Below are positions 81 to 37,385 of a stretch of DNA of 64,000 bases, piece after piece. The stretch's first letter is position 1; each line of letters starts with the position of its first letter. The DNA is taken from assembly GCA_003151625.1 (NCBI GenBank), contig PLYC01000021.1, positions 80,235 through 144,234 on the forward strand, read 5' to 3'. The notes below the pieces were generated by a model. That model did no database searches. It was given only the letters and a program-made list of their open reading frames with translations, and was not told the DNA's origin. Both the position numbers and the translations under genes were made by a program. The DNA comes from Candidatus Doudnabacteria bacterium. Its GTDB lineage: Bacteria > Patescibacteriota > Doudnabacteria > UBA920.

Positions 81-364
81 GAAAATTAGTTATTAGTTAA
101 TATTGCTTAGTTTGTAGCGTGCCGATTTATCGGCTGTTTTCTTAATTAAATATTTTTAATTAGTTTAATTAACCTAATTGTTCTAATTATTCTAAATAAT
201 GTCTAATGCTTAAATGTCTAAATTCTGACATTGGATATTATGATTTGTTTAGGTCAATTAGACTAATTAGAGCAATTAGAATAATTTTTTAGCCTCTTTA
301 CAAACCTCTCTCTCTGTGGTATTTTTAGCTGTCCGATTCTTCGGCATGCAAAGGAGGTTCTATC

Positions 365-604
365 GTGGCAACGCACGACATCGATTGTGCTCTTAACTTC
401 GGGCAACTGACTGATTCTGAGCGGTGGGCTTACCTGGTCAGGCAAAATGCCTACTACATCTGGGAACGCCGGGTGAAAGCAGACACGCCTGGCACTCCAG
501 AAGAAGACTGGACAACAGCGGAAGCCGAGGTCGCCAAAGGCTGGAAAGTCTGGTTTACTGATGGATTTCTCGAATCGTTGCACCTACCAGCGGCCATCAC
601 ATAA
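365..604 (+). CDS. DUF2934-family small protein (GTG start), in a GC-rich patch
   Basis: 79-aa ORF preceded by AAAGGAGG 7 nt upstream of GTG. Sequence ..ERWAYLVRQNAYYIWERR..GTPEEDWTTAEAEV.. fits the DUF2934 pattern (AY.LWE.RG...G...DW..AE.EL). GC is noticeably higher than the flanks. Confidence 0.55.
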   Translation: MATHDIDCALNFGQLTDSERWAYLVRQNAYYIWERRVKADTPGTPEEDWTTAEAEVAKGWKVWFTDGFLESLHLPAAIT

Positions 605-609
605 ACTTC

Positions 610-700
610 GTCCTGATCGTCCGCACCCCGTGCCCTGTGCCGGTTAGTTTTCCGTCCGCCTTCCGCCAACTGGCGGATGAGGATTTGGAGCTAACGGTAC
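610..700 (+). terminator. Long hairpin followed by a T-run (rho-independent terminator-like) after the DUF2934 gene
   Basis: ccctgtgccggttag ... ctaacggtacaggg stem enclosing a CCGCCaactGGCGG mini-palindrome, followed by tcggttttttt. Confidence 0.5.
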
Positions 701-757
701 AGGGTCGGTTTTTTTATTGGAGGATATTTTAAGGTTCTTTGCATTATCTGCGGAGCT

Positions 758-883
758 TCCCCTCCTTCTTTAAGGAGGGGGTGTCCCGTCGGATGACGGG
801 ACGGGGTGGTGATACTTATCAACGCCGATTCATTCACCGCCTCCCCCGCCTGCGGCGGGTACTCCTCCTTAAAGAAGGAGGAG
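758..883. repeat. Composite GC-rich palindromic element between rpoB and rpoC; its ends are mutually inverted hairpins
   Basis: cccctccttctttaaggagggg (758-780), gtcccgtcggatgacgggac (783-802), ccgcctgcggcgg (846-858), ctcctccttaaagaaggaggag (862-883). The right half cctcccccgcctgcggcgggtactcctcctt... recurs almost identically in frame inside polA at 34745-34795. The element itself creates the spurious ORFs 739..930 and 924..1115. Confidence 0.7.
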
Positions 884-935
884 AGACTGCATTACGATTC
901 GTGTTCATTCGTCTGCAGTATTTGTGTTAATTAGT

Positions 936-3900
936 TTATTTTTTCTTTTCCTTCTTCGTCGGCTTCTTTTTAACCTCATCGTCAAACAAAGAAGTTTCAC
1001 TTACAATAGGCATTACTGGGGGGAGGTTTGGAACAATAATTTCCGGCTCTTCGGCGGCGGAGCTTACCGCGCCGTCCCGGCCGAGCAGTTCCACATCCAG
1101 ACAAAGCGACTGTAATTCTTTAACCAAGACTCTGAAACTTTCCGGAATATTTGGTTTTTTAATCGGTTCGCCTTTGACAATGGCTTCGTAAGTTTTTGAG
1201 CGTCCTACTACATCGTCCGATTTTATGGTCAGCATTTCCTGCAGAGTGTGGGCCGCGCCGTAACCTTCCAAAGCCCAGACTTCCATTTCCCCAAAACGCT
1301 GGCCACCGAACTGGGCTTTTCCGCCAAGCGGCTGTTGGGTAATAAGCGAGTACGGACCGGTGGAACGCGCGTGCATTTTGTCATCTACCAAATGGTGTAA
1401 TTTTAAGAAATACATTACGCCCACGGTAACTTTTTCATCAAACCTGTCGCCGGTTTTTCCGTCTATTAGATAGACCTTGCCGTCTTCCGGAATGCCGGCC
1501 TTTTTTAATTCTTCTTTAATTTTACTTTCGTGTACTCCGTCCAAAACCGGAGTCGCGACATGATAGCCCAAGCGTAAGGCGGCCATGCCCAAATGAGTCT
1601 CTAAAATCTGTCCGAGGTTCATACGGGACACCACGCCAAGAGGATTTAAAATAATATCCACGGGGGTGCCGTCTTCCATAAACGGCAAATCTTCCACCGG
1701 AATAATTTTGCTAATAACTCCTTTGTTTCCGTGGCGGCCGGCCATTTTGTCGCCGACCTGGACTTTGCGCAATACCGCGACTGAAACCTGAATACTGCGA
1801 ATAACGCCGCTCTGGAGCTTGTCTCCGGCTTCCCTGGTAAACTGGCGGATGTTTACAACTTTTCCGTATTCGCCGTGAGGCAAAGTCAAAGAGGTGTCTT
1901 TAACATCGCGGGACTTTTCACCAAAAATTACTCTTAAAAGTTTTTCTTCCGCGGTTAAATCCGTTTCGCCTTTTGGCGTAATCTTGCCGACTAAAATGTC
2001 CCCGGCTTTAACCTGGGCGCCAATGCGGATAATCCCGGTGTCGTCTAAATCCTTTAATTTTTCTTCGCCGACATTGGGAATGTCGCGGGTAACCTGCTCT
2101 GGTCCCAACTTAGTATCGCGCACATCTATTTTAAAATCATCAATATGAATACTGCTGTAGCGATCCTGCTGAACCACGCGCTCGGAGACCAAAATAGCGT
2201 CTTCGTAGTTACCGCCTTCCCAAGACATAAACGCCACCAAAACATTTTGGCCCAGAGCCAATTCGCCGTGTTCAGTAGAAGCTCCATCTGCCAACAAATC
2301 TCCTTTTTTTACAGTTTGTCCCTTATTTACACGGGCAATTTGGTTAATGGATGTGGCGGAGTTGGTTCGCAAAAATTTCAACAGCGGATATTCTTTCTTT
2401 TTGCCTTTTTCGCCGACCACAATAATTTTTTCGCCCATGACCGATGTTACGGTGCCGTCTTCTTCGGCCAAAACCACGGTGCCGGAATCACGCGCCGCTT
2501 TGCCTTCCATACCCGTGCCGACTATAGGCGCGTCGGGCTTTATGCAGGACACGGCCTGACGTTGCATGTTACTGCCCATTAACGCACGGTTGGCGTCATC
2601 GTGTTCCAAAAACGGAATCAACGATGTAGTTACGGAAATAATTTGTTTTGGAGAAACATCCAAAAAATCAATATCGTCCGTGGAAGCCATAGTCGGCACA
2701 GTGCGTACACGTACGCTGGCGCGGGGTTCCACAAAATACCCCTGCTCGTTTAAATTAATATTGCTTTGACCGATAATTAATTTTTCTTCCTGGTAAGCAT
2801 CCAAATAAACAATTTTTCCGGTGGCGCGGGGCTTAATTCGTACTTCCAATAGCTGATGATTTTTGGCCGCCTCTTTGGCTTTGCTCGCGCTGACGGTTTC
2901 TCCGGCCGGCACTATGACTTTGCCTTGTTCATCTTTAATATCGTAAAGGGAAATTTCTTCTTCTAAGTCTTTGCCGTCATTTTTGGCGGCTTTTTTTACC
3001 ACGCGGTACGGGGTTTCTATAAAACCAAAATCGTTGACGCGCGCGTAAGTTGCCAAGTGGGCCACGAGTCCGATGTTCGGTCCTTCCGGAGTGGTAATTG
3101 GGCAAAGCCGGCCGTAGTGGCTATGGTGCACATCGCGGACTTCAAATCCGGCGCGTTCTCTGGAAAGTCCTCCGGGACCCATGGCACTAAGGCGGCGCTT
3201 GTGTTCAAGCTCGGCCAACGGATTTGTCTGGTCCATAAACTGGGACAGCTGGGAAGAGGAAAAAAATTCCTGCATAGTGGCAACTATGGGGCGGACATGG
3301 ATAAGCTGGGCTGGAGTTACAGTATCTAAATCGGCCAAGGACATGCGGTCTTTGGCTATTCTAGCCATGCGGGCAAGGCCAACGCGAAAGCGGGCCTGGA
3401 TAAGTTCACCAACGGCTCTGACGCGGCGGTTTGCTAAGTGGTCTATGTCGTCCGGTATGCCCTGGGTATTGTTTAATTTAATAACTTCCCGAACAGCCAT
3501 AACCAAATCTTCTTTGGTCAAAATTTGGCTTTCGTTATTTTGTACGTTTAAGCGCTGGTTAAACTTATAACGGCCGACCGCGGAAATATCGTAGCGCTCG
3601 GTGTTAAAAAACATACCGGAAATTAAAGACTTGGCGTTGTCTACGGTAGCCAGGTCGCCTGGGCGAATTCTTTTATAGACTTCCTTGTAGCCTTCGTCGG
3701 CATTAGTGGAAGCGTCTTTTTCCAGAGTGTTTAAAATATATTTAGTGTCCGGGTCGGTATCTACGTCTGCAAAAGCGGCTAAAATTTCCTCGTTGCTGTT
3801 TAGACCGAAGACTCTTAAAAGGGCGGTTATGGGAATTCTTCTTTTGCGGTCGATTTTTACGCCAATTACTCCGGCGGCATCGGTATCCAGTTCCAGCCAA

Positions 3901-4433
3901 GCGCCGCGGTTAGGTATGATTTTCGCACCGTAATAATTTTTACCGCGCAAATTCTCGGCCGTAAAAAATACGCCCGGGGATTTAATAAGCTGGTTAACCA
4001 CAACGCGCTCCACGCCATTGATAATAAATGTGCCGCGCGGAGTCATTAACGGAAAATCTCCAAAATACACGTCTTGAGTCTTTACTTTGCCGGTTTGTTT
4101 GTTGACCAGCTTGGCGGAAACATACAGCGGGGCTTCGTAAGTGGTGTTTCTCTCGCGGGAAGTAAACTCGTCGTATTTGGACTTGTCAAAAAAGAAATCG
4201 CCAAAAAACATTTCCAGGTTTTTCCCGGTAAAGTCGCGAATCGGATTAATTTCTCCCAATAAGTCCTTAAGACCTTTTTCTACAAACCACTTATACGAAA
4301 TTAGCTGTACCTCTATTAAATTAGGCAGCAGCGCGGTTTCGTGGCTTGAGGTAAAAAACTTGCGTGGTGACAACTTGCTCTCGGGGAACTTAACCATGGC
4401 GGAGACGCCAACGGTTTTAGATTTAGTAGCCAT
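936..4433 (-). CDS. rpoB: DNA-directed RNA polymerase subunit beta
   Basis: 1165-aa ORF with a characteristic RpoB sequence throughout (e.g. ..[27 protein letters not shown].., ..[15 protein letters not shown]..). Confidence 0.97.
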
Positions 4434-5487
4434 TAAATAACCTAACTTAGGATTGCTGTTTTTTTAGAGACAACACTCCCTAGAGCCAAAAAACGCACTT
4501 TTTGGCTTATTTAAGGATAAAAACTAAATCCTATAAACCTCTTAACAAAAAGAGGTGTTACAATATTGAGCCATCCCCGGATTAAATCCGGGGAAAAAAT
4601 TGGCCAAAATTGTAAGACCGAAGAATATTCTACATCTTCTATCTCCCCGAAATCATGATTGAAGACGCAAAACATTCCCTTTTTCGCGTAAGCAAAAAAG
4701 GCCGATCCACAAAGGCTTATAGGCTTATTAAATTGTGCATATTAGGATTGTAGCAGTCAAGGAGAATTTGTCAAGTCCCAAACCGCAGGTTTGGGACTTA
4801 GCCCTGTACCGGAAGCCTTGGCGACTGGTACGGGGCAAGTCGATCATTTCATTTGTATCTCTATCCTACCACACTTACCCCCAAACTTCAAACAGTTAAT
4901 CCACAAGTTATTATTTTTCAGGCCACCAAGCTATTTTTCACCCCATCCCCTAACGAACGGGGCGGCAGGAAAAGAATAGAATGATGGCCTGGAAAATCGG
5001 GACGAACAAGGCGTAGTGCTTAGCCTGGTTCATCCCAAAGTGGTGCAATTTTTTTGTTTTTCCGGCGCCCCTGTTTGGTCAAGGCTGCCGGGCAAGTTTT
5101 GGAGAAGTTATTTTTTCCTCTTCTTCGAGTTTCTCCTTTCCAGCCGACGGCCTTGCTCAACGCCGAGCTGGACTGCCAGGTTGATTATGACCCACAGCAG
5201 ATCCCGACCCTCCTCCTCTTGTTGCTGGAGCATTTCGGGATCAAAAGTCCTGTAGGGCCGCGCACTCAACCTTCTCGCAAGGTTGGATTGAGTGGAGATA
5301 ACGTCCAACCCCTCATACACAAGGGTCTGGCGTTTTCTCCTTTGAAGCCGATAGCCCTGGCGGAGAGCCGACACCAAAGGGTCGACAATCCACTCAAGAA
5401 ACCTTACCGGCTGCTTTTTTGGCCACTCCACTTTTCTATTCACCTCCTTTATATGGTTTTTGTGGCCGGTTCCATCAACCGGTAATC

Positions 5488-5841
5488 TTATTTTTCGTCG
5501 GGAAGATTTTTACCCGACAACTCCCGAACATCGTCCGGGTCGTCGCCGAAGCAGTATTCCTCCGACCATACTTGGCGGTGAAGATCGGTCAGCGGTCCAA
5601 ACATCGGCCCGTCTGCCGAAACCAACAGCTCCATCGCCGTTTCAAAAGCGAGGAAGCCCTCCTGGCCGTACATCCGTACGGCCACGTACTCGCGTACCGT
5701 AGGTCCTCCCGCAAGACCGAGCGAAAAGCCGTTCACCAAAGCGGCCACCGCGTGGGCGAAGGCGAAGATACGGCCTTCGGAGGCCTCGGGGTTTCGTGCT
5801 CGGGCATATTCAAGTGCCCGCCCGAGAAAAAACTCCTCCAT
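5488..5841 (-). CDS. Hypothetical protein (GC-rich island)
   Basis: ORF 5488..5913. The likely true start is MEEFF at 5841, with a GGAAGAGG RBS about 10 nt upstream. It immediately follows the stop of the upstream ORF at 5844. No recognisable family. Confidence 0.45.
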   Translation of the reverse strand: MEEFFLGRALEYARARNPEASEGRIFAFAHAVAALVNGFSLGLAGGPTVREYVAVRMYGQEGFLAFETAMELLVSADGPMFGPLTDLHRQVWSEEYCFGDDPDDVRELSGKNLPDEK

Positions 5842-5843
5842 GG

Positions 5844-6473
5844 CTATTTTACCTCTTCCCCGCCTTGGCTGGGCGGAATTTCGACCGGCTGTTGGGGCTC
5901 CGAGGTGAGGCACAACAGCCCCACCATTGGCAGCCGCCGTAGTAGGCGAAAAACCACCTGTGACAGCTCGTCTACGAGGCTGATGACCGCCTCGATTTCG
6001 TCGTTGCTATACTCCGGCTTGGTGCCGGTCTTCTCCACGACGACCGAGAGGCCGCCCGCGGCGTTAAAGCCGTTGGAGTTGGGCGTAGCCGGGAAATCGC
6101 GGCCGTAGCCGCGATAGCCGATGTCCGTGGTGTCTACCAGGCCATCGACCGTATTTCCCGTGTCCGGGAAATTGCCTTCCGGTTCGGCCGGCTGCCACCC
6201 GCCCTGTTTGAGGAGGCCGACCACATGGTCGACCATTGCCGCCACGTCCCCATAGGGGCGGACGCGGCGGAATTCAAACCAGAAGCGGAGCTTCTGGTGG
6301 TCGGACAGCCCGGCTTGATCCGGGCATTCGGCCGTGGTCGCGTCGCCAATGAATGGCGCGGCCGGGCTGTCCACGTCTCCGTACAGACAGACGCGGACGC
6401 GATCCGTTCCCTGACTCTCGCCGCCGAAAGACAGGTCCAACGGCAGACCTTTAACGTAGGTTTGTGGTTCCAT
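5844..6473 (-). CDS. Hypothetical protein (GC-rich island)
   Basis: ORF 5844..6527. An internal start MEPQTYVKG at 6473 has AAAGGAG 11 nt upstream. Protein-like composition, unlike the R/S-rich opposite-strand ORFs. Confidence 0.45.
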   Translation of the reverse strand: MEPQTYVKGLPLDLSFGGESQGTDRVRVCLYGDVDSPAAPFIGDATTAECPDQAGLSDHQKLRFWFEFRRVRPYGDVAAMVDHVVGLLKQGGWQPAEPEGNFPDTGNTVDGLVDTTDIGYRGYGRDFPATPNSNGFNAAGGLSVVVEKTGTKPEYSNDEIEAVISLVDELSQVVFRLLRRLPMVGLLCLTSEPQQPVEIPPSQGGEEVK

Positions 6474-6720
6474 ACGTTTTTTACTCCTTTTAAAATTGGG
6501 TTTTCTGTTTCGTCCTTGCGGACTCATCAGCCTGGGACTTCTATACCCAAGGACAGAAAAATACTAAAAATTAAGCGTGTAGTGCAGGCCATCGGCCTGC
6601 TTTAAATAAAATCTTTGGGGAAAGGTTTGTGCAAAACCGTTTCCCCGTAGATTGAATGCGTTATACGTCTGCCCGTACAGTCTCGCCGTTTGTTGCTAAA
6701 ACGGTGACAAAATTCTGCCG

Positions 6721-7806
6721 CTACTTTGGCAACTTTGGAAGGCGGGTTTTGGCTTCAATCTCCCGTTCCCAGGAAATCATGTTGTTGCCGAAAAACTTCT
6801 CGGCAACTTCCTGGCGGGAAAGCCACTCGGCTCCCGGCTCGTCCTGTTGGGTGGAGTAAAGGACGAACGGGTGGCCGCAGACCGCCCGGAAAGCCTTCTC
6901 CACTTCCGCCTCCCCGACACGCGAACGCGTCGGGTGCGAGCCAACGTGTAGGTGGCGTTCCCAGAGCCCGACAATCCCTGGGTGGCCGGTGATTTGGAAA
7001 ATCCGGCCACCGACCCGAAAGTCGACGGTCAAACCCTTATCCACCAGGCACAACAACAGCCAAGGGATGGCCCACTTATGCTTTTCCGTGGGCAACGTCC
7101 ACGGACATTTCGTGGTCGCCGGCTCCTGCTCGTCCACTTCCTCGGAGCCCCACACGAACGCGTGGGTGTTCCAAAACTCCTCGGAGCAGGCAGTGGCCCG
7201 CTTGTCCCACGGCTGGGGCTCGGGCACCCCGCCAAAGAACGCGCCGAGGAGCAGGAACGTGTCCCCCTGCCGTTTCAAGACCACCGTTACCTCGGAGCTG
7301 GGCTCCGGCTGGCGGTTTTTGACGAACCGGCTCAAGCCTCGGTCTTTAGCGCCCAGCTTGCGCCGGGCATAAACCACAACCTCACCCTTCCCCTCCAAGT
7401 AGGGCCGGAACTCCTCCGGCGCCTCTTCGGCCAGGGGTTGAGCCGGCATGACCTCGTCGGGACGATGCTTCACCCAGGCTTTGGCGAAATGCTCGGCCTG
7501 GGTTTTTTTGGAGGCCTGCTCGTCCCGCCAAGCTCCCGCCCGTCGCTGGGCGTCGCGGATTTCGCCGTCACGCCTGGTGGCGACGACGTTGCTGTTGCCA
7601 ATCGGCCGACCAAAATCGACCGACTGGATAATCATCCCGACCTCACCAGCCGGGAATCCATCTTCTGGATTGTGCGCATTGACCCGCGCCAAAGCGCGGG
7701 CGAGGAACCGCGCGGTACCTTTGTACCGCTGTGATCCCTCGTTAGCCAGGACCGTCTCGCCGCTTGCGAGCGTCCCGACCTTCTTCATTTGTAGTGAAGA
7801 CGCCAT
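6721..7806 (-). CDS. Hypothetical 361-aa protein (GC-rich island)
   Basis: Long ORF with AAAGGAGAGGG RBS about 9 nt upstream of the ATG. No family confidently recognised. Confidence 0.5.
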   Translation of the reverse strand: MASSLQMKKVGTLASGETVLANEGSQRYKGTARFLARALARVNAHNPEDGFPAGEVGMIIQSVDFGRPIGNSNVVATRRDGEIRDAQRRAGAWRDEQASKKTQAEHFAKAWVKHRPDEVMPAQPLAEEAPEEFRPYLEGKGEVVVYARRKLGAKDRGLSRFVKNRQPEPSSEVTVVLKRQGDTFLLLGAFFGGVPEPQPWDKRATACSEEFWNTHAFVWGSEEVDEQEPATTKCPWTLPTEKHKWAIPWLLLCLVDKGLTVDFRVGGRIFQITGHPGIVGLWERHLHVGSHPTRSRVGEAEVEKAFRAVCGHPFVLYSTQQDEPGAEWLSRQEVAEKFFGNNMISWEREIEAKTRLPKLPK

Positions 7807-7920
7807 TGTTTTGCCCTCTCCTTTTGGGCTATCTATTTACTAGAGATTCTTCGCTCCGCTCAGAATGACGCCGAAAAAAACCTAACAAACACATAGCTCA
7901 AAAGAAAAAAGCCTCCTCCC

Positions 7921-8025
7921 CCGCCAAGCCGTAGCCTGTGGTCCACAGCCGGGCGGGGGAAGAGAGGAACAAAAAGTTGTGCAGACTTTTGTTCCCCTCG
8001 ACTTAAGTGCAAATGGCGATTAAGG
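7921..8025. repeat. Intergenic repeat copy A, homologous to 12570-12690
   Basis: Shares gccgtagcct, aaaagttgtgca[ga]acttt and cccc..c.t.agtgcaa blocks in the same order with the MoxR/vWA spacer. Contains nested hairpins (ccccgcc...ggcgggg, ggaacaaaaag...cttttgttcc). Confidence 0.55.
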
Positions 8026-10013
8026 CTCGCCGTGGGCCTCACCGGAGGTGGTGAATTTTTGTGTTTGGTATTTTTTCTCCGGTGGCAGCTATAGTACGAA
8101 TCCGTTCCTTTAGGCCAACAAGAGCACAAAGGCTCCCGTCGAAACGTATTCGTCTGCTTTGTCTTTCCCGCGCGCTTGCCGGCGCGGCCTTAAATAGGAG
8201 GTTTTACCTAACTTCAGGCTTCCTCCCGGCGCGATTCTCTTTTTTAGCATCCTGTTTTGTGACTTGTGGAAAATTGGTGATTGGTTAGGATGTTTCAAGA
8301 ACCGCGATTCGGCGTCCGTCTTGCCTGGATGGGCCAAAGCTGGTGGCTCTGGCAAAGACTAATCCCTGTGGCGAGCAGGAAAATTGTTTCCCCTCCTTAA
8401 ACAACCTGCAAACCGGCGTTTACAGGCCGCCTAATTCAGGCCAGGCAAAAATAAACTGCGACCTATCTTGGTGTTTGGTGAAAGATAGTGTTTGGTAATT
8501 TTTAGGTCGCAGGCGGATGGATATTAAAACCCGATAATTGCTTCGGGCTTCACTTAAACATTTAGTTCAATCCACCCCGGCCCTAAGCCAAGGCTGTTTA
8601 AGTTTTTGCGGCAGCCGTTGCCGACTTTTCCATCCTGACACTCCTTGGGGGCTTTTCGGCTGTTTAGTGGGTATATTTAGTAGCCAAAAAACCTTAACCC
8701 CTTAGAGCCGCTGTTGTGTATCTCCCAAACCGCCAGCTGGCAGCTTGGGTCTCGTGTAGCGTTTTTGATGAGCGAAAGAAGGTAAAACGCCTTCCACCGG
8801 GCCCTTAGCCCATAAAGATAAGTGGCGAATGTCGCCGCCAAACCTTTCCTTTCGCTGTTTGTTCTTCCCTCATTCTGCCGGGATTGTTTGCCGACAAACC
8901 TCTTGGGGCGCGCCTGCCCATTACCTTTCGGCAATAAACACAGTACAAACTTAAAACTGCTTGACGTGGGGTATTGTATATTAGCGCTTCTTACTGTGAC
9001 AATTTTTTACCCAATAGGAGATTACTCTCCGCACAGAGAAGCGGCTGGATTTTCTGTTGTGCTCACCTGTAGTACTCTCCAGCAAAACCTAAGATGAGCA
9101 TTAACCAGTTTGTAATTTGTATTTTGGATTCCACACTCTGGTAAAAAGAACCCAAAACAGGCAGTTGTATTTAGAGCGTTGGTAAAAACAATTAGCCAAA
9201 ATCTTACCAACGCCGGTGCTGCTTGTTAGCGGTAAATCAGGTGCAGTTTATTGAAACCTGCCTTACCGACTTCTTGCTCTAATGACAAAATACCGTGACA
9301 TCCAGCTGGCAATGTCCTGTAAGTACCCTGCCACCTACAAATTTAATGAGCGCCTGAAGCAGAAGCTCATTAAACCAGCCGCGTTGCTTAAACCTTTTCC
9401 GCCCTCAGCGCGAAAGCCCTGCGGAAAAGAAAAATTTTTCTGAATAGCCAGGCTCAAATGAATTTTTAAACATTTGAGCCGCCAGCGCCACTGGCCCCTC
9501 TAGCCAAACAAAATCAGCCGATGCAGTTTCTGGCGCGTCCGGTTTACTGATTCACCGGACCTTGTGCGATGGGAACACAAGAATTTTGTAACCCACCTTG
9601 CGCCTTTTTAACGCTCTTTACCGATTCTTAACATGCTTGCCTTACGGCAAGGGAACATAGGTCTATCTATCCTAAAACCTATGCCTTTCATGCTCAGCCA
9701 CCCCCGATGCGCCTTCCCGGTCATCTCGAGAGAAAATGAACCGCTTGTCAGGGTTTAAACCCTCTACGGTGCCCTTATCATTTTTGTCTTTCTCCTCTTC
9801 GAAAAATCCAAACCAACCAAGAACCTCTTCCCGGCTTATTTGGGAGTAACGTGATGTTTTACGTTCCTCTCAAAATTTTATAGTTTATACCTTGCCGACT
9901 CGTCCGCCATAGCTTTAGCGAATTTGGATTTATCGGCCAAAACATAACTAGAAAACTTTGAGAGGAAGAGGAAGCCTAGGCGGTGTGCAATCGCGGGGCT
10001 TCCTCTTTTAGTG

Positions 10014-10454: not shown

Positions 10455-10538
10455 TTTCTCTCCTCTTATGGACCGAAACGGATGGTGTTTTATTATTTGG
10501 TAACCATCCCCCAAACCCTTGTCCGGATTCTCACCGAA

Positions 10539-20467: not shown

Positions 20468-21823
20468 TCAATTGTTTCCGCCAAAGGCGGAGCCGCCTTT
20501 GGCGGTAATTGTTAATTGTTGCAAGACTTCTTTGACTACCCGAACTTCATCCCAATCAACCCTTTTGTTTCCGGGCAAAATCAAAAACTGCTCACTGCCC
20601 TTGCCGGTAATTAAAACGAGATCGTTTTCCCTTGCAAAAGATAAAGCCCGAAAAATGGCCTGCTGGCGATCCAAAATTATTTCGTATCGCGACTTTCTTA
20701 ATTTAAAACTGTTAATGCCGTCTTCGATATTTTTGGCAATTTCCCTGGGATCGGAATCGTAAATATCGTCGTTGGTAACAATAATAATGTCCGCATACTG
20801 CGCGGAGGCGTGGCCAAACACAAATCTTTTGCCGACGTCGCGGTGCCCGCCGGTACTGCCAAAAACGTGGATTAGCCGGTTATGCGGCAATTGCGCCGCT
20901 GATTCCAAAGCGGCTTTAAATGAAGCCGGCTCACAGCCATAATCCACAATTATTTGAAGTCCCCGATTATTTGGGACATTTTCCATCCTGCCCCGGATCC
21001 CGCTGAATTTTTTTAGAGCTCCGGCCGCTTTTTCCAAATCTACTTCCAGCATATTCGCGCAGGCAACCGCCAAGGCGGCATTCTGCGCGTTAAAATTACC
21101 AGGCAAATTTAAGGTAAATGTCGTATTCTCAATTTTAAATTCGGTCTGGCTGCCTTGTTTGGTTAAATCGACAAAAAAAACTTTTTGCGCATCGCTGACT
21201 TTAAGCCGCCGAAAACTCACCCCGAATTTTTTGTCGGCTGGAAAACTCAAAAAATACCCTGCCATGGGATCGTCTAAATTTATGCCGATAACTTTTTGCG
21301 GAAAAAAAGGTTTTTTCCTGTTCTTGCCGACTGCCGCAAACAGCTTGCCTTTAGCCTGCTGATAATTACCAAAACTGCCGTGCGCGTCTATATGAGCGCG
21401 CGAGAGATTTGTAAACACGGCCATATCAAAATTAATCCCCCAGTGGCGGTTTTGAGCCAGCCCCTCGGAAGTGCATTCTATAATTGCCACCCTGCACTTA
21501 TTTATTGCCATGGCGTGCAGCTGCCTCTGTAATTTAATTTCATTGGGCATTGAAAGCCCGTGCTTGTTAATAAAACTTTTTTGTCCGTCAAAAAAATCCA
21601 CGGTTGTAATATACCCTGTCTTAATTCCGGAATTATTTAAAATATGCGCCAATATGGCGGTAGTGGTGGACTTTCCGGCCGTCCCCGTTATGCCAATAAC
21701 AATAAGTTTGCTACTGGGCCGGTCATAATAAATATTGGCATCCCAAGCCAGCATGCCGTGGTACCAGGGTCGAATAAATTTTAGCAGATCCTCGGGAATT
21801 AATTTTTTTAATAAATTCTTCAT
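20468..21823 (-). CDS. Mur ligase family (MurE/MurF-like UDP-N-acetylmuramoyl-peptide ligase)
   Basis: GITGTAGKSTT P-loop in the Mur ligase central domain. C-terminal ..TAKGGSAFGGNN is encoded by the palindromic element ccgccaaaggcggagccgcctttggcgg (20478-20507). Confidence 0.8.
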   Translation of the reverse strand: MKNLLKKLIPEDLLKFIRPWYHGMLAWDANIYYDRPSSKLIVIGITGTAGKSTTTAILAHILNNSGIKTGYITTVDFFDGQKSFINKHGLSMPNEIKLQRQLHAMAINKCRVAIIECTSEGLAQNRHWGINFDMAVFTNLSRAHIDAHGSFGNYQQAKGKLFAAVGKNRKKPFFPQKVIGINLDDPMAGYFLSFPADKKFGVSFRRLKVSDAQKVFFVDLTKQGSQTEFKIENTTFTLNLPGNFNAQNAALAVACANMLEVDLEKAAGALKKFSGIRGRMENVPNNRGLQIIVDYGCEPASFKAALESAAQLPHNRLIHVFGSTGGHRDVGKRFVFGHASAQYADIIIVTNDDIYDSDPREIAKNIEDGINSFKLRKSRYEIILDRQQAIFRALSFARENDLVLITGKGSEQFLILPGNKRVDWDEVRVVKEVLQQLTITAKGGSAFGGNN

Positions 21824-29485: not shown

Positions 29486-29530
29486 CTTACAAAATCCCGC
29501 CACTCGGCGGGATTTTGTAATTTTTTCTGC

Positions 29531-31438
29531 CTAGTGACTAGCAGACCCACTCCCTGCATCGGAGAGAGGGAAGGCCGCAGAGGTTGCAAAGCTTTCTAAA
29601 AATTTTACAATACGCTGGTCCAATAAAATGTCAGCCGGGTAAATTGGACGCTTTAGAGTCAGACCGACTAGGGTGCGGCATCGGGAAAGCGCGACGTAAA
29701 GCTGGCCATGTGCAAAAGTGCCGGAGGCTAAATCTATATAAACTTTATCAAAAGTTTTGCCTTGGGCTTTGTGAATAGTTACCGCCCAGGCTAATTTAAA
29801 CGGATATTGAGTATAGGTACCCATGGTTTTACTCTTTACCGTTTCGGTATATTTATCAAGCGTAAAACTGTACATTTCCCAAGTATATGGCTCAACGTTT
29901 ACAGTCTCGCCGGTTTCGAGTTCAACAATGATGGTATCGGGAGCATTGTTTTCTTCAATAGAAAAATCAGTGGTAAGGGGTTCCGATTCAGAGGCAGCAA
30001 ATGGATCGGCAGTATCGTAACTCCAACCACCCCGTCCCGCTCCGCGGGCCACCCCTCCTTGAAAAGGAGGGGAAACCACACCTAGATTAAATTTTTCTAT
30101 ACCAATAATTTTCCCCATTGTGCCATTGACCCAGCGCTTGCGCTGGTCGTTATTGAGCATCATAATTTGCGCGCCAACTTTTATTTGTAAGTGTAAATCC
30201 GTGGGAAGTTCGCGATCTTGAAAACTGCCGCGCGCGCTACCGGTATAAACCTTTGGCTCCGACTCAATACGCTCCAAAAAATAATTATTTACCCAACTTG
30301 CCCGTTTGTTGGTCGGAGTTAAATAAATGGAAAATCTCTCAAAGGAAAATTCTTTTTCTTGATCTTGGGCGCGCTGGTTTAATATTTGCAAATGGTCGGT
30401 ACTCGCGGCATTATTGCGAACCGCGTTCAAGATTTCCAAAAATACCCTCTCCTTTTGTCTGTACATTGTCTGAAGTTCAATGAATTTAAATTGTGAATTT
30501 TTAAAACTTCGGGAATCAAAAAAATAAGGGCTCGTATATTCTTTAATTAAAGCGCTAACCGAACCAAAATCCCGCTCAACCGGCGGAAGTTGATACAAGT
30601 CGCCGATAAATATCATTTGCAAACCGCCAAACGGCATATCCGACGCTGGTCCGTTTAGACGCAAAAATTTATCAACGAAATCCAAGAGGTCGGCTCTGAC
30701 CATGGAAATTTCGTCTATGATTATGGTGTTTAATTTTAAAAGCAGTTTTCTTTTTGGGGAAAATGGGGCCAACTTTTTAACCTTTTGCATGGTTATGTCC
30801 GGACCAAAAGCGCAAAAAGAATGAATTGTTTGGCCTTCCACATTTAAGGCAGCAACGCCTGTCGGAGCCAGAACAACAATATTTTTCTCCGTGGTGTGGC
30901 GAAAATGCTGTAAGAGAGTAGATTTCCCTGTACCAGCCTCACCGGTTAAAAATAAATTCTGTTGGGTATTTTGCATTAAATCCAAGGCTCTTTGAGCCTC
31001 GGGATTGTCGGAAAAATTGAATTGTGGCGGCATCGTATCGCCCGGCTTAACAGAACCACCCCGCCTACCTTCTAAGGAGGCCAAGGCATCGGAAGATAGG
31101 TAGGAAGACACCCTTCCTTCGTGAAGAGGGGAAACGGCGCTCCCGCTGTCCTTTTTGCTTTTTCTTTCTTCATCACGCTTTTTTTGGGCATCGTAATCCC
31201 AACCCGCAATATCAGGAAAATATTTAGCCAAGCGGCCTCGGATGCCGTTTGGTTTACGGCCAAATTTTTCGGCTGTTGCCTCCAAAAATATTTCAAAGCT
31301 TTCCGATCCTTCCGTTTTATGGCTATCATAAACGTCCAAAAGCGCCGTATCCTCCTCTTTTGTCCAGCGCATGAAGGCCTTCGGATGCGTTTTACGCAAT
31401 TCTTCAATATTGCTTATTTTTTGGGCTTGTTTGTCCAT
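29531..31438 (-). CDS. Pif1/RecD-like ATP-dependent DNA helicase with N-terminal extension
   Basis: Motif I LTGEAGTGKSTLL. Motif II IIIDEISMV. ..LQMIFIGDLYQLPPV.. In-frame palindromic insert at 30027-30077 coding GVVSPPFQGGVARGAGRGG. Confidence 0.8.
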   Translation of the reverse strand: MDKQAQKISNIEELRKTHPKAFMRWTKEEDTALLDVYDSHKTEGSESFEIFLEATAEKFGRKPNGIRGRLAKYFPDIAGWDYDAQKKRDEERKSKKDSGSAVSPLHEGRVSSYLSSDALASLEGRRGGSVKPGDTMPPQFNFSDNPEAQRALDLMQNTQQNLFLTGEAGTGKSTLLQHFRHTTEKNIVVLAPTGVAALNVEGQTIHSFCAFGPDITMQKVKKLAPFSPKRKLLLKLNTIIIDEISMVRADLLDFVDKFLRLNGPASDMPFGGLQMIFIGDLYQLPPVERDFGSVSALIKEYTSPYFFDSRSFKNSQFKFIELQTMYRQKERVFLEILNAVRNNAASTDHLQILNQRAQDQEKEFSFERFSIYLTPTNKRASWVNNYFLERIESEPKVYTGSARGSFQDRELPTDLHLQIKVGAQIMMLNNDQRKRWVNGTMGKIIGIEKFNLGVVSPPFQGGVARGAGRGGWSYDTADPFAASESEPLTTDFSIEENNAPDTIIVELETGETVNVEPYTWEMYSFTLDKYTETVKSKTMGTYTQYPFKLAWAVTIHKAQGKTFDKVYIDLASGTFAHGQLYVALSRCRTLVGLTLKRPIYPADILLDQRIVKFLESFATSAAFPLSDAGSGSASH

Positions 31439-31730: not shown

Positions 31731-31860
31731 ATATTGTTAATTGGTTTATATTGTTTGCGACCTTTAATAAGATCTTTAAAGCTCACTAGAATGAGCTGGC
31801 AATCTTTTAAGAGATCCCTCCCCGCCAGAGGCGGATAGGGATGCCTCCGCTAGCGCGACA

Positions 31861-32880: not shown

Positions 32881-33171
32881 AAATTCTCCTTTTGTTTTCC
32901 GCCGTAGGCGGATCCGCCTTTGGCGGAAAGCATACGAGAGCCCCTCGTATTGGCTTATTTATAAGCCTTTTAAGTTTGTTCCAAAATGGAACATACTGAA
33001 CTATTTCCATTTTGGAAACAGTTGATATTTATATAGTATACAATCGTTCACCTTATGTCAATCCCTTTAAAGATAAGGGTAAAATAAATTTCCGCCCGAG
33101 TTATCCACTGCTTTGTCCCGCCATGGCGGGACTTCGCAGTGCAAGCACGCCATACCGTTTTCTCGCAAAAT

Positions 33172-34593: not shown

Positions 34594-37385
34594 TTATCTC
34601 CCGCCTTAACTTCCACTTTAATCGGAACGGAAAGTTTAATGGCTTCTTCCATCATTGGAATTAACTTTTTTGCCCAATATTCCACTTTGTCCTCCCGAAC
34701 TTCAAATACAAGTTCGTCGTGGACTTGTAAGAGCATTCGAATTTCACCACCTCCCCCGCCTGTGGCGGGTACTCCTCCTTTGAAAGGAGGAGAGCTCCGC
34801 AGCATTTCCTTGTGGATATTGATCATGGCTACCTTAATTACATCAGCGGCCAAAGACTGGATGGGAAAATTCACGGCCGCGCGTTCTGCCGCGGCACGGA
34901 TAAAGAATTGGGAGGATTTTATTTCCGGGAATTTGCGCATCCGGCCAAGCTCGTTGCGGACAAAGGCTTCTTCGTTGACCTGCAATTTAATTTGCTCAAT
35001 ATAATTTTCCACGGCCGGATAAGCGGCAAAATATTTTGCTATAAATTCTTTGGCCTCCGCGCGGCTTACTTCGCCAATGCGCGATGACAGCCCAAACGAC
35101 GACAGCCCGTATAAAATACCAAAGTTGATTGTCTTGGCGTCGCGCCTCATATCGGCCGTAACTTTGTCGTCCGTCACCCCAAAAATACTGACCGCGGTGT
35201 TGGTGTGGATGTCTTCATTATTCTTAAACACCCGGAGCATATTTTCATCTTTGGCCAAATGCGCCACAATGCGCAATTCAATTTGGCTGTAGTCAATAGA
35301 TAAAAGCTTATAGCCCGCCTCCGCCACAAACGCCTGCCTAATTTTACTCCCCAAGCCTTGCCCCCGAATTGGAATATTCTGCAAGTTCGGGTCGGTGGAA
35401 CTAAGTCTACCCGTTGCCGCAATGGTTTGGTTATAGTTAGTATGAATCCGTCCGGTTTTTTTATTTACCAATTCCGGCAGCGCCAGCAAATAAGTTGATT
35501 GCAGCTTAGCCAATTCCCTATATTCCAAAATTTTATCAATTACCGGATGCTGGCCTTTCATTTTTTCCAGCTCGCCGGCGGCCGTAGACAGGCCGGTTTT
35601 GGTTTTACGATTTTGCACCGGCTCTAGTTTCATTTTTTCAAATAAAACCTCCTTCATCTGCTTTGGAGAATTCAAATTAAATTCCTCGCCGGTTAATTTA
35701 TAAATTTTACTTTCCAAATCCTTAATATCAATTTCTGCTTCCGCGGATAACTTGTTTAAAAATTTGCTGTCCAGTTTAATGCCATTTAACTCCATGCTTG
35801 CCAGCACTTCCACCAGCGGCATTTCAATGTCGTAAAAAACTTTTTCCAAACCTTCTTTTTTCAATTGGGGTTCAAAAAGTTCTTTAAGACGTAAAGTCAT
35901 GTCCACGTCTTCACAGCAGTACCAGCTCACTTTAGCCGGCTCCCCTTTATCCATTGTTATCTGATTTTTTCCTTTACCTATTAAATCCTCTATTGGCTGC
36001 ATTTGATAGCCGAGCTCGTTAAAAGCCAGGGCGTCTAAACCATGCTGGCGCGTGCCGGCATTTAGGAGATAGGAGGCTATCATGGTATCAAAATCAGTTG
36101 TAAGTTGTAAGTTGTAAGTTGTAAAAACCTCCAAGTCGTATTTTATGTTGTGGCCGATTTTTTTGATTTTAACATCGGATAATATTTTTTTTAATTCTTC
36201 AGATGCCAAAAATAAATCCGCGGCTACATAATACGCTACCCCTGGCTTTACACAAAGTCCCACCCCTACTAATTTTGCGTTTATTGTGTCGAGACTGGTA
36301 GTTTCCGTGTCGATGGTTATTTCTTTTGCCGCTGACAAACCCTTCAAAATCTTTTCCAATTTTTCTTCCGTGTCTATAAACTGGTAATCCTGTTTGCCAA
36401 TACTCGCAGCGCCCTCCGCCTTATTTGTAGGATTTTCTGACAATAATTCTTCATTAATCGCCCCTGCACCCTCACCCCTGACCCCTTTTTCCTTTGGCAG
36501 CTTCCCAATCAGCGTCCTAAACTCCAATTCCTGAAACAACTTCACTGTACCCTGCAAATGCGCGGCATCAAAATCATAAGCAACAATATTTATTTCCAAA
36601 GGAACTTTGCAGTCAATTTGTGAAAGCTGATAAGACATTATCGCTTCTTTTTCCTGTGACTTAAGCAATTCCAAAATCCTCGGCTTAATTTTACTGCCGG
36701 TTAAGCCTTCTTTAATCGCTGTATATAATCCATCAAACGATTTAAAATCTTGAATTAATTCCGAAGCGGTTTTCTCGCCTATTCCCTTTACCCCCGGAAT
36801 ATTATCGGAAGGGTCGCCGCGCAAAGCCTTATAGCTTACCATTTGGTCTGGGTTAAGCCCGTAGCGCGCTCGAACGGCTTTGGCGTCGTAAATTACCACA
36901 TCGGTAATACCTTTGCGCATGGTATAAACTTTTATAACGTGATTGACTAATTGCAAGGTGTCTAAGTCGCCTGTCACAATAATTACTTCTGCTTCCGGGT
37001 CTTTTTTATGCAAAGTTAAAGCCAGTGTACCAAGACAATCATCCGCCTCAAAACCCTGTTTTTCAAAAATAAGAATATTTAACGCGCGCACCACTTCTTT
37101 AACGCGCGGAATTTGGTCGTAAAGTTCCTGGTCGGCCTTAACGCGCGTGCCTTTATATTCCTTATACTGCACGTGCCTAAAAGTCGGGCCGGCCAAATCA
37201 AAGGTGCAGGCAATATGCGTGGGCTTAATGTCTGCAATGGCTTTAAGCAAAATCAAGCTAAAACCATAAACCGCGTTGGTCTGCTCCCCGCTTTTGGTGT
37301 TTAAAACCGGAATAGCGTGATACCCGCGGTGAATTAGCGCGTTGCCGTCTATTAACATATAGCGCGATTGTTTTGGAGGCGTCAT
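34563..37385 (-). CDS. polA: DNA polymerase I
   Basis: 5'-3' exonuclease N-terminus (..LIDGNALIHRGYHA..). Polymerase motifs A/B/C (..LSIDYSQIELRIVAHL.., ..RRDAKTINFGILYG.., ..QVHDELVFEV). Two in-frame GC inserts (34745-34795 and 36460-36487) and a 7-bp x4 tandem repeat at 36096-36123. Confidence 0.95.
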   Translation of the reverse strand: MTPPKQSRYMLIDGNALIHRGYHAIPVLNTKSGEQTNAVYGFSLILLKAIADIKPTHIACTFDLAGPTFRHVQYKEYKGTRVKADQELYDQIPRVKEVVRALNILIFEKQGFEADDCLGTLALTLHKKDPEAEVIIVTGDLDTLQLVNHVIKVYTMRKGITDVVIYDAKAVRARYGLNPDQMVSYKALRGDPSDNIPGVKGIGEKTASELIQDFKSFDGLYTAIKEGLTGSKIKPRILELLKSQEKEAIMSYQLSQIDCKVPLEINIVAYDFDAAHLQGTVKLFQELEFRTLIGKLPKEKGVRGEGAGAINEELLSENPTNKAEGAASIGKQDYQFIDTEEKLEKILKGLSAAKEITIDTETTSLDTINAKLVGVGLCVKPGVAYYVAADLFLASEELKKILSDVKIKKIGHNIKYDLEVFTTYNLQLTTDFDTMIASYLLNAGTRQHGLDALAFNELGYQMQPIEDLIGKGKNQITMDKGEPAKVSWYCCEDVDMTLRLKELFEPQLKKEGLEKVFYDIEMPLVEVLASMELNGIKLDSKFLNKLSAEAEIDIKDLESKIYKLTGEEFNLNSPKQMKEVLFEKMKLEPVQNRKTKTGLSTAAGELEKMKGQHPVIDKILEYRELAKLQSTYLLALPELVNKKTGRIHTNYNQTIAATGRLSSTDPNLQNIPIRGQGLGSKIRQAFVAEAGYKLLSIDYSQIELRIVAHLAKDENMLRVFKNNEDIHTNTAVSIFGVTDDKVTADMRRDAKTINFGILYGLSSFGLSSRIGEVSRAEAKEFIAKYFAAYPAVENYIEQIKLQVNEEAFVRNELGRMRKFPEIKSSQFFIRAAAERAAVNFPIQSLAADVIKVAMINIHKEMLRSSPPFKGGVPATGGGGGEIRMLLQVHDELVFEVREDKVEYWAKKLIPMMEEAIKLSVPIKVEVKAGDNWGEMEKLGF

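What the first reader, a model, noticed from the sequence alone, without database searches (positions are those of the whole stretch)
758..883. About 125-bp composite palindromic element in the rpoB-rpoC spacer with mutually inverted terminal hairpins (MITE-like)
The termini cctccttctttaaggagg (761-778) and cctccttaaagaaggagg (864-881) are exact reverse complements of each other. Internal hairpins gtcccgtcggatgacgggac and ccgcctgcggcgg lie between them.

Pieces of this element recur at polA (34745), the helicase (30052), 31822, 32893/32908 and 20478/20495. That suggests a dispersed, possibly mobile, miniature element family in this AT-moderate genome.
Basis: seen in the sequence. Interest (0 to 1): 0.6.

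Follow-up and report, generated by a model that had tools for sequence, protein, structure and literature searches.

The report
Inverted pair of REP-like hairpin repeats
The 125-bp palindrome between rpoB and rpoC is two inverted copies of a ~50-nt two-hairpin repeat that also sits in-frame inside the DNA polymerase I and helicase genes, and near-identical copies occur in at least eight bacterial phyla and in viral contigs.

Summary
The palindrome at 758-884 is real: the 18-nt termini are exact reverse complements, and it folds far better than shuffles as RNA or ssDNA. It is not one 125-bp element. It is a head-to-head pair of two ~50-nt units. Each unit has a tag (A)ACCACC, a variable GC hairpin, and a fixed hairpin CYCCTCCTT-loop-AAGGAGGRG.

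Full copies lie in-frame in polA (34746-34792) and in a Pif1-like helicase (30026-30072). A decayed copy is at 31054-31136.

Relatives (Candidatus Doudnabacteria) have a 14-25 nt rpoB-rpoC spacer, against 855 nt here. None of the other 119 listed polA homologs carries the insertion at that site.

I found no target-site duplications, no transposase and no Rfam match.

The same unit, tag included, occurs in eight bacterial phyla and in viral contigs, mostly near gene ends and often as head-to-head or tail-to-tail pairs.

Best reading: a REP/RPE-like non-autonomous palindromic repeat, not a classical MITE. It would act as a stable RNA/DNA hairpin between the convergent rpoB and DUF2934 genes. Its mobilising agent is unknown. 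The cross-phylum conservation is the surprising part.

The parts
758..884 (.). Composite palindrome: a head-to-head heterodimer of two repeat units. With the CPR-specific 3' extensions it spans about 748-891.
   Evidence: Inverted arms 758-778 / 864-884. Exact 18-mers. Folds at z = -8.8 as RNA and -7.6 as DNA.
759..810 (-). Left unit, subtype v1. On the + strand: fixed hairpin hp2 759-780, variable hairpin hp1 783-802, tag GGTGGT 805-810.
   Evidence: nhmmer 814-752 (-) E 3e-11. Independent HMM 810-757 E 3e-7. Regex parse.
811..835 (.). 25-nt spacer between the two facing tags.
   Evidence: Head-to-head spacers in the family range from 18 to 101 nt.
836..883 (+). Right unit, subtype v2: tag ACCGCC 836-841, hp1 CCCGCCTGCGGCGGG 845-859, hp2 862-883. 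A 3' extension AGACTGCA follows.
   Evidence: nhmmer 832-893 E 9e-15. Independent HMM E 2e-10.
34746..34802 (+). v2 unit plus the AGCTCCGCAG extension, inside polA and antisense to the gene. It is read in frame as SSPPFKGGVPATGGGGG.
   Evidence: A 13-aa net insertion against Klenow, about 8 residues before QVHDE. None of the other 119 listed homologs matched the element-peptide patterns at this site; the 29 closest were also inspected in an alignment.
30026..30072 (+). v1 unit inside the Pif1-like helicase gene, antisense to it. It is read in frame as SPPFQGGVARGAGRGGW.
   Evidence: It lies in a 49-aa insert relative to PDB 8bns. The orthologous site is occupied in 8 of the 24 nearest homologs.
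31054..31136 (+). Decayed fifth unit in the helicase N-terminal linker. The tag is intact, hp2 is degenerate and hp1 is long.
   Evidence: Weak nhmmer hits to the tag (31054-31066) and hp2 (31109-31133). The sequence, and a clean v2 unit at the same site in ortholog L234.
365..604 (+). Context: a small orphan DUF2934 gene inside the rpoB-rpoC spacer, convergent with rpoB. The dimer lies between the two gene ends.
   Evidence: Pfam PF11154, 29.5 bits against a cut-off of 22. Called as a gene in the source contig. No homologs by word search.
936..4433 (-). Context: rpoB. Its stop codon is 52 nt from the dimer.
20478..20505 (.). Not a member. Doublet of the generic CCGCC-N3-GGCGG hairpin, overlapping the 3' end of ORF 20468-21823.
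32899..32926 (.). Not a member. Doublet of the generic CCGCC-N3-GGCGG hairpin, intergenic.
31822..31834 (.). Not a member. Single generic CCGCC-N3-GGCGG hairpin, intergenic.

Best explanation
The 125-bp palindrome is a head-to-head pair of two subtypes (v1 and v2) of a ~50-nt, non-autonomous, REP/RPE-like repeat unit.

The unit reads 5'-(A)ACCACC-YCS-[variable GC hairpin hp1]-YAC-[fixed hairpin hp2: YCCTCCTT-loop-AAGGAGGRG]-A-R(-TTT). Units disperse as single copies or as inverted pairs. They land near gene ends and, in open reading orientation, inside tolerant loops of proteins.

Here the pair lies in a lineage-specific 855-nt insertion that split rpoB from rpoC. It sits between the 3' ends of rpoB and a convergent DUF2934 gene.

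Shown:
- the anatomy of the unit and the pair;
- membership in the family;
- presence/absence differences among orthologs;
- in-frame insertions;
- absence of target-site duplications.

Inferred:
- When transcribed from either side, the pair folds into a ~21-bp closing stem plus three hairpins. This would act as a 3'-end protector, a transcription barrier or a double-strand RNase target, insulating the convergent transcripts.
- Spread depends on an unidentified factor acting in trans on single-stranded hairpins, by analogy with REP-associated tyrosine transposases (RAYTs) acting on REPs.
- Copies are homogenised by replacement or gene conversion.
For: Anatomy and membership:
- The two halves align with each other and with the polA and helicase copies.
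- An HMM built from 106 units of other genomes, with no window sequence, finds exactly these four copies (E 3e-12 to 3e-7). It finds nothing in 450 kb of rpoBC loci from 80 relatives.

Family:
- 126 of about 137 hp2 cores carry the unforced ACCACC tag upstream. I estimate about 6% by chance.
- Organisms with full units span Bacteroidota, Ignavibacteriota, Acidobacteriota, beta- and gamma-Pseudomonadota, Desulfobacterota, Nitrospirota, Verrucomicrobiota and Patescibacteria, plus viral contigs.

REP-like behaviour:
- Gene ends flank the units more often than gene starts (89 against 53), often within 60 nt.
- 72 of 155 units are in pairs: 20 head-to-head (10 of them v1+v2, spacers 18-101 nt), 15 tail-to-tail, only 3 head-to-tail. 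This matches the REP dimer patterns in PMC3733652.
- hp1 keeps a stem through 62 different stem sequences (mean stem 5.0 against 3.5 in shuffles).

Insertion polymorphism:
- The rpoB-rpoC spacer is 14-25 nt in the nearest relatives, against 855 nt here.
- The polA insertion at this site was found in none of the other 119 listed homologs. Four others carry unit-derived peptides at a different site.
- The helicase sites are occupied, empty or decayed in different orthologs.
- Near-identical copies occur within single genomes and viral contigs.

Intragenic REPs, notably in polA and in UvrD/Rep helicases, are documented (PMC3733652).
Against: - No mobilising enzyme was found. A crude tblastn with an IS200 TnpA sequence recalled from memory found nothing in the window. 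An all-against-all comparison of ORFs in 120 loci gave only housekeeping families. The rest of the genome could not be searched.
- The canonical REP tag (GT[AG]G at the 5' foot) is not present in that arrangement. REP families are normally specific to a species or genus, whereas this core is nearly invariant across phyla. That points to functional constraint or frequent transfer rather than simple selfish spread.
- None of the four window copies has a U-tract after hp2, so classical intrinsic termination here is doubtful.
- Family statistics come from loci selected by a pattern that fixed hp2, so its conservation is partly ascertainment.
- No expression data exist.
Confidence: 0.7

Rival explanations
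1. Classical MITE. The 125-bp element would be a deletion derivative of an insertion sequence, moved as one piece by a DDE transposase that recognises the 18-21-nt terminal inverted repeats.
For: Perfect 18-nt inverted termini. Typical MITE size. A 7-nt direct repeat TGCATTA lies near both ends (740-746 and 889-895, read).
Against: - The termini are themselves hairpins and belong to two separable units. Those units occur singly elsewhere: in polA, in the helicase, and as 83 of 155 family units.
- The right-hand TGCATTA overlaps the unit's own 3' extension (AGACTGCA, compare AGCTCCGCAG in polA).
- No excess of target-site duplications in 133 units.
- No transposase found in the window (crude test).
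Confidence: 0.07
2. A dedicated cis-regulatory RNA of the rpoBC operon. It would be an attenuator, a processing site or an rpoC leader that only resembles repeats elsewhere.
For: Very stable, well-defined four-way fold on both strands. The location is between rpoB and rpoC. hp2 pairs an anti-SD-like CCUCCUU with an SD-like AAGGAGG.
Against: - It is absent from the rpoB-rpoC spacers of all 80 relatives. Their spacers are mostly 14-60 nt and contain no unit.
- The same units lie inside coding sequences and in unrelated intergenic regions in many phyla.
- It lies more than 670 nt from the rpoC start, with an antisense gene in between.
- No Rfam match.
Confidence: 0.07
3. A portable functional module rather than selfish DNA. 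This would be a conserved two-hairpin terminator or insulator RNA, or a protein-binding site, kept by selection and spread by phages. Its cross-phylum conservation would reflect a universal partner such as the ribosome's anti-SD end, RNA polymerase or an RNase.
For: - About 30 nt are nearly invariant across eight phyla, while hp1 varies with compensating changes.
- The loops are strand-asymmetric: hp2 loop GAA 23 against TTC 4, and hp1 loops mostly TNC.
- T-runs follow hp2 in 35% of units and in 52% of viral copies. In some viral contigs a unit occurs every 2-3 kb, just after stop codons.
- At one orthologous helicase site, relatives carry v1 or v2 with coordinated changes, and the hairpin arms are better conserved than the flanking codons.
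Against: - Copies occur in both orientations relative to genes, and inside ORFs.
- Some copies decay (31054-31136).
- The window copies lack U-tracts.
- No partner has been identified.
- Part of the conservation is imposed by the search pattern.
Confidence: 0.14

Closest known systems
REP / BIME / REPIN elements (repetitive extragenic palindromes, mobilised by RAYT/TnpA-REP Y1 HuH enzymes)
   Same: - Short GC-rich hairpins with an unpaired conserved tag.
- High copy number, mostly just downstream of genes.
- Inverted head-to-head or tail-to-tail dimers, often heterodimers of two subtypes, that can fold into one long hairpin.
- No target-site duplication.
- Occasional in-frame copies in polA and helicase genes (PMC3733652; PMC6006769).
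   Different: - The unit has two hairpins, one variable and one fixed.
- The tag is (A)ACCACC. Its complement GTGG lies at the 3' foot of the hairpin, not the 5' foot.
- No RAYT was found.
- The sequence is conserved across at least eight phyla, whereas REP families are usually specific to a species or genus.
Rickettsia palindromic elements (RPE)
   Same: Palindromic repeats inserted in frame into essential protein-coding genes, adding a short peptide in a tolerated loop. They also occur in intergenic regions.
   Different: RPE-1 is about 100-150 bp and is confined to Rickettsia (my own knowledge; PMC3733652 equates RPE-4 and RPE-6 with CGTC REPs). I did not test for sequence relationship. The host here is a CPR bacterium.
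CGTC-tagged REPs (Di Nocera et al. 2013)
   Same: Mostly head-to-head dimers, many heterodimers, no associated transposase, and copies inside genes. Some v1 units contain CCGTC at the hp1 foot.
   Different: CGTC REPs have an unpaired CGTC tag, 8-9-bp stems that begin with A-T pairs, and a CCA tail. Here GTC is paired, the stems are GC-only and of variable length, and a second fixed hairpin follows.
Bacterial MITEs (for example Correia, ERIC, RUP, Nezha)
   Same: Small, non-autonomous, dispersed elements with inverted termini. They can carry terminators or be co-transcribed.
   Different: MITEs have inverted repeats matching a parent IS, and target-site duplications. Neither was found here.

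Membership tests
MITE | Terminal inverted repeats that delimit one mobile unit | tested here: not met
   Inverted 21-nt ends exist. They are the fixed hairpins of two independent units, which occur singly in polA, in the helicase and in 83 of 155 family units.
MITE | Target-site duplications flanking copies | tested here: not met
   In 133 units, direct repeats of 4 nt or more at the borders are as frequent as in shuffled pairings.
MITE | A cognate IS or transposase with matching ends in the genome | tested here: inconclusive
   Nothing in the 64-kb window by tblastn with an IS200 TnpA sequence recalled from memory. The termini occur nowhere else in the window. The rest of the 246.8-kb contig and genome was not available.
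REP/REPIN (RAYT-associated) | Short GC-rich imperfect palindrome, many copies, mainly extragenic near 3' gene ends | tested here: met
   Five copies in 64 kb here.
REP/REPIN (RAYT-associated) | Inverted dimers (head-to-head or tail-to-tail) predominate over head-to-tail; heterodimers are common | tested here: met
   20 head-to-head, 15 tail-to-tail, 3 head-to-tail. 10 of the 20 head-to-head pairs are v1+v2.
REP/REPIN (RAYT-associated) | Conserved GT[AG]G tetranucleotide at the 5' foot of the hairpin | tested here: not met
   The tag is ACCACC at the 5' side of hp1. Read on the other strand, GTGG lies at the 3' foot. Definition taken from PMC6006769.
REP/REPIN (RAYT-associated) | A RAYT gene flanked by the repeats (REPtron) | not testable with these tools
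   This needs the whole genome. The window search was negative, and no recurrent nuclease family appeared in 120 loci.
CGTC-tagged REP | Unpaired CGTC tag, 8-9-bp stem starting with A-T pairs, CCA tail | tested here: not met
   Unit sequences compared with the description in PMC3733652.
Rickettsia palindromic elements | In-frame insertion in protein-coding genes without disrupting conserved domains | tested here: met
   polA: 13-aa net insertion before motif QVHDE. Helicase: within a 49-aa insert between two matched domains. The ORFs stay open.
Rickettsia palindromic elements | Sequence homology to RPE-1 to RPE-8 | not tested
   No RPE sequences were at hand.
Intrinsic terminator | GC-rich hairpin followed directly by a U-tract | tested here: not met
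   0 of 4 window units have a T-run after hp2. 35% of family units and 52% of viral copies do. The terminator scan found nothing at 740-900.
Any Rfam family | Match to a curated covariance model | tested here: not met
   No hit at the gathering threshold in the window or on the units in 17 loci. The only E-value hit is sub-threshold (anti-hemB, 23 bits against 49.5).

The most novel reading that the evidence does not exclude
The unit defines an undescribed superfamily of repeats, each with a tag and two hairpins, shared by at least eight bacterial phyla and their viruses. Its about 30-nt core and its two co-varying subtypes (v1 and v2) are actively maintained. The evidence for active maintenance is that orthologous sites switch subtype through coordinated changes in tag, linker and hairpin. 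This would imply a widespread, sequence-specific machinery for mobilisation, gene conversion or binding, distinct from the RAYT-GTAG and CGTC REP systems. That machinery can write short peptides into essential genes such as polA and Pif1.
Probability: 0.3. Interest if true: 0.75.

Novelty: new variant of a known kind. Interest (0 to 1): 0.6.

Why it matters
- Ultra-small CPR genomes, usually seen as streamlined, carry active or recently active palindromic repeats. These remodel an essential operon and add peptides to replication proteins.
- A REP-like unit with a nearly invariant core across many phyla and in phages does not fit the view that such repeats are lineage-specific. It points to a common partner (enzyme, ribosome, polymerase or RNase) or to frequent virus-borne transfer.
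- The unit is short, sharply defined and easy to search for. Its distribution, its associated genes and its effect on transcripts are directly testable.
- It is also a source of spurious ORFs and of odd insertions in annotated proteins, which is worth flagging in annotation pipelines.

Tried and rejected
- **Rfam.** Searches at the gathering threshold on the window and 17 loci, and at E-value threshold on 600-1000, gave nothing relevant.
- **BLAST.** blastn of 745-900 against the plasmid and phage collections gave no match. The query is short and low in complexity.
- **Literature.** Searches with sequence strings and keywords found no description of this unit. Only the general REP papers were useful.
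- **Covariance model.** I did not build one. MAFFT put the loop-length gaps of hp2 at the end of the alignment and shifted the 3' arm. Hairpin statistics were computed in Python instead.
- **Recurrent neighbouring gene.** An all-against-all comparison of 674 ORFs found only ABC transporters, AMP-binding enzymes and TPR proteins.
- **tRNA-like, attC-like and 16S 3'-end-mimic readings.** I dropped these. They rest on a few matching bases, and the CCUGCGG match to helix 45 of 16S rRNA is specific to one copy's loop.
- **SD use by downstream genes.** Only 2 of 25 downstream starts lie within 10 nt of hp2.
- **Archaeal and Firmicutes hits.** These pattern hits lack the tag and were treated as chance.
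- **DUF2934 ORF.** A homolog search returned only the query itself.

Full report
**Observation**

The sequence at 758-884 is as described. CCTCCTTCTTTAAGGAGG occurs at 761-778 on the + strand and at 864-881 on the - strand with no mismatch. It occurs nowhere else in the window even with 3 mismatches (0.04 expected). The complementary arms run for 21 nt. The hairpins GTCCCGTCGGATGACGGGAC (783-802) and CCCGCCTGCGGCGGG (845-859) lie between them.

The region folds into a long closing stem around three hairpins:
- RNA, + strand: -89.5 kcal/mol, z = -8.8.
- RNA, - strand: z = -8.3.
- Single-stranded DNA: -43.2 kcal/mol, z = -7.6.

rpoB is 936-4433 (-). The first 26 codons of rpoC end at position 80. 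The element is therefore in the rpoB-rpoC spacer.

**Anatomy**

The element is not a single unit. Its right half (836-883, +) aligns with a stretch in polA (34746-34792). The reverse complement of its left half (759-810) aligns with a stretch in a Pif1-like helicase gene (30026-30072).

Each unit reads 5'-(A)ACCACC, three bases, a GC hairpin (hp1), YAC, then a second hairpin (hp2) YCCTCCTT-loop-AAGGAGGRG.

There are two subtypes:
- v1: ACCACC-CCG ... CAC-CCCTCCTT ... AAGGAGGGG.
- v2: ACCACC-TCC ... TAC-TCCTCCTT ... AAGGAGGAG.

The spacer element is a v1 unit and a v2 unit placed head-to-head, tags facing, 25 nt apart. The 'mutually inverted terminal hairpins' are simply the two hp2 hairpins.

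**Copies in the window**

A profile of the four copies finds only those four. An HMM built from 106 units of other genomes, with no window sequence, finds the same four at E 3e-12 to 3e-7. It also gives two weak hits that mark a decayed fifth copy at 31054-31136. That HMM finds nothing in 450 kb of rpoB-rpoC loci from 80 relatives.

That mini-hairpin is over-represented: 7 copies against 0.08 expected, and 3 against 0.09 for the N4 form. One copy, at 29497-29510, has T-runs on both sides and looks like an ordinary bidirectional terminator. I treat these as a separate, generic class.

**In-frame copies**

- **polA (34563-37385, -).** The unit is read as SSPPFKGGVPATGGGGG. This is a 13-residue net insertion relative to Klenow fragment, just before the catalytic QVHDE motif.
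- **Helicase (29531-31438, -).** The unit is read as SPPFQGGVARGAGRGGW. It lies inside a 49-residue insert between two segments that match solved Pif1-like structures.

**Source organism and polymorphism**

Homologs of polA and the helicase that carry names are from Candidatus Doudnabacteria / Patescibacteria.

- **polA.** Among the 120 listed polA proteins (query included), only the window's protein matched the element-peptide patterns at the C-terminal site. The 29 closest homologs were also inspected in an alignment. Four other homologs carry unit-derived peptides (TPPQQGGE, SPPFQGGVPERSEGEV) in the linker near residue 320.
- **rpoB-rpoC spacer.** In the closest rpoB relatives (84-87% identity) the spacer is 14-21 nt, and in most others under 60 nt. 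Here it is 855 nt. The whole spacer is therefore a lineage-specific insertion. It contains:
  - AT-rich TAATTAG-type repeats;
  - an antisense DUF2934 gene at 365-604;
  - the hairpin pair, which sits between the convergent ends of that gene and rpoB.
- **Helicase.** The site is occupied in 8 of the 24 nearest homologs. At the DNA level the window and L234 carry v1 there, while L233 and L235 carry v2. The changes in the hp2 pair, the linker and the tag are coordinated, and the hp1 stems differ. The flanking codons are poorly conserved. This indicates replacement, re-insertion or gene conversion rather than neutral drift.
- **Helicase N-terminal linker.** This site holds a decayed unit here, a clean v2 unit in L234, and a different palindrome in L233.

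**The family elsewhere**

Of about 137 hp2 cores in those loci and the window, 126 carry the unforced ACCACC tag at the right distance. I estimate roughly 6% by chance.

Loci with full units come from Bacteroidota (including isolates of Bacteroides, Hymenobacter, Salegentibacter, Mesonia and Leeuwenhoekiella), Ignavibacteriota, Acidobacteriota, beta- and gamma-Pseudomonadota (three loci in Thiorhodospira sibirica), Geobacter and Trichlorobacter, Nitrospirota, Verrucomicrobiota and Patescibacteria. The archaeal and Firmicutes hits lack the tag and are probably chance.

Viral contigs carry the unit too, in some cases one every 2-3 kb.

Because the pattern fixed hp2, the invariance of hp2 is partly ascertainment. 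The tag, the linker and the trailing A-R are not.

**Behaviour of the family**

- hp1 keeps a stem through 62 different stem sequences (mean longest stem 5.0 against 3.5 in shuffles).
- The loops are strand-asymmetric: hp2 loop GAA 23 against TTC 4, and hp1 loops mostly TNC.
- Units lie next to gene ends more often than gene starts (89 against 53), often within 60 nt. About a quarter fall in long ORFs. Examples are three units in one acidobacterial AMP-binding/acyltransferase gene and more in another AMP-binding gene.
- 72 of 155 units are paired: 20 head-to-head (10 of them v1+v2, spacers 18-101 nt), 15 tail-to-tail and 3 head-to-tail.
- A T-run follows hp2 in 35% of units, in 52% of viral copies and in none of the four window copies.
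- There is no excess of flanking direct repeats.
- No recurrent neighbouring gene appears.
- No Y1 transposase was found in the window.
- There is no Rfam match.

**Comparison with known systems**

The behaviour matches what is described for REPs: location downstream of genes, head-to-head and tail-to-tail dimers, frequent heterodimers, large hairpins formed by dimers, and in-frame copies in DNA polymerase I and helicase genes (PMC3733652; PMC6006769). It also recalls the Rickettsia palindromic elements.

It fails the defining sequence features of both REP superfamilies. There is no GT[AG]G at the 5' foot, and no unpaired CGTC with A-T-initiated stems and a CCA tail. It also differs in having two hairpins and in its cross-phylum conservation.

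It fails the MITE criteria of unit inverted repeats, target-site duplication and a parent IS.

**Mechanism**

Shown: it is a dispersed, polymorphic, hairpin-forming repeat that tolerates translation.

Inferred:
- Spread probably uses single-stranded hairpin intermediates and a factor acting in trans.
- In this locus the pair forms a stem of about 21 bp with three hairpins in transcripts coming from rpoB or from the DUF2934 gene. It would act as a barrier, a 3'-end protector or a double-strand RNase target between the convergent genes.
- rpoC would then depend on read-through or on a promoter in the AT-rich 81-300 region.

The absence of U-tracts and of any expression data keeps this part tentative.

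**Verdict**

The MITE interpretation is only partly right. The element is a head-to-head heterodimer of a REP/RPE-like two-hairpin repeat. The striking result is that the same unit is shared across many phyla and viruses and is not in Rfam or in the papers I could search. I cannot exclude a description in literature that was not searchable here.

Noticed in passing
window 81-935: The rpoB-rpoC spacer is 855 nt, against 14-25 nt in the closest relatives. The operon is split by an antisense, orphan DUF2934 gene (365-604, +), which found no homologs in the word-index search.
   Followed up: partly
window 140-200 and 245-290: AT-rich arrays of TAATTAG-like motifs at 9-bp spacing. They form two mutually inverted blocks (42-nt arms, 74% complementary) just upstream of rpoC and of the DUF2934 gene. 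They could be regulator binding sites or a promoter region.
   Followed up: no
window about 5000-14000: High-GC island (0.53-0.62, against 0.40-0.48 elsewhere) directly upstream of rpoB. Most ORFs have no Pfam match. It includes an AAA_5 (MoxR-like) ATPase (12731-13915, -) and a weak VWA protein (10539-12416, -). No ORF of 100 aa or more lies in 7850-10010. It may be horizontally acquired.
   Followed up: partly
window 663-676, 10068-10081, 20478-20505, 29497-29510, 31822-31834, 32899-32926: CCGCC-N3/4-GGCGG mini-hairpins are strongly over-represented (10 copies against about 0.2 expected). Two are doublets. One (29497) has T-runs on both sides, like a bidirectional terminator. The same stem forms hp1 of the two v2 units.
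   Followed up: partly
L233:7318-7372, L234:7330-7383, L235:3040-3084, against window 30026-30072: At one orthologous helicase site, relatives carry either subtype v1 or subtype v2 of the unit. The changes in tag, linker and hairpin pair are coordinated, and the hp1 stems differ. This suggests concerted replacement.
   Followed up: partly
protein P0123 (helicase ortholog): A second insertion is nested inside the hp2 loop of the unit (SPPF-SAIGGSAYGG-QGGV).
   Followed up: no
L233:6270-6400 (helicase N-terminal linker): A different palindrome with GTAG...CTAC ends (CGTAGCGTGCC...GGCACGCTAC) occupies the site where the window has a decayed unit and L234 a clean one. This disordered linker seems to be a hot spot for palindromic insertions.
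   Followed up: no
L123, L126, L122/L128/L132/L149, L135 (IMG/VR contigs 3300005979_000001/2 and 3300006000_000003/10): Viral contigs carry a v2-type unit every 2-3 kb. Most are followed by AGTTTTT, and several lie 2-12 nt after a stop codon, so they behave like standard terminators.
   Followed up: partly
L006, L018, L037, L052 (Balneola): An hp2-like hairpin without the ACCACC tag recurs with identical flanks. In L006 it lies near a Y1-transposase-like ORF (1105-1446). It is probably an IS200/IS605 end and a separate family.
   Followed up: no
L104:2-3007 and L118:1785-4043: Acidobacterial AMP-binding enzyme genes contain several units in frame. L104 has three: one inside the AMP-binding domain and two in the linker before the acyltransferase domain. 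L118 has at least two.
   Followed up: partly
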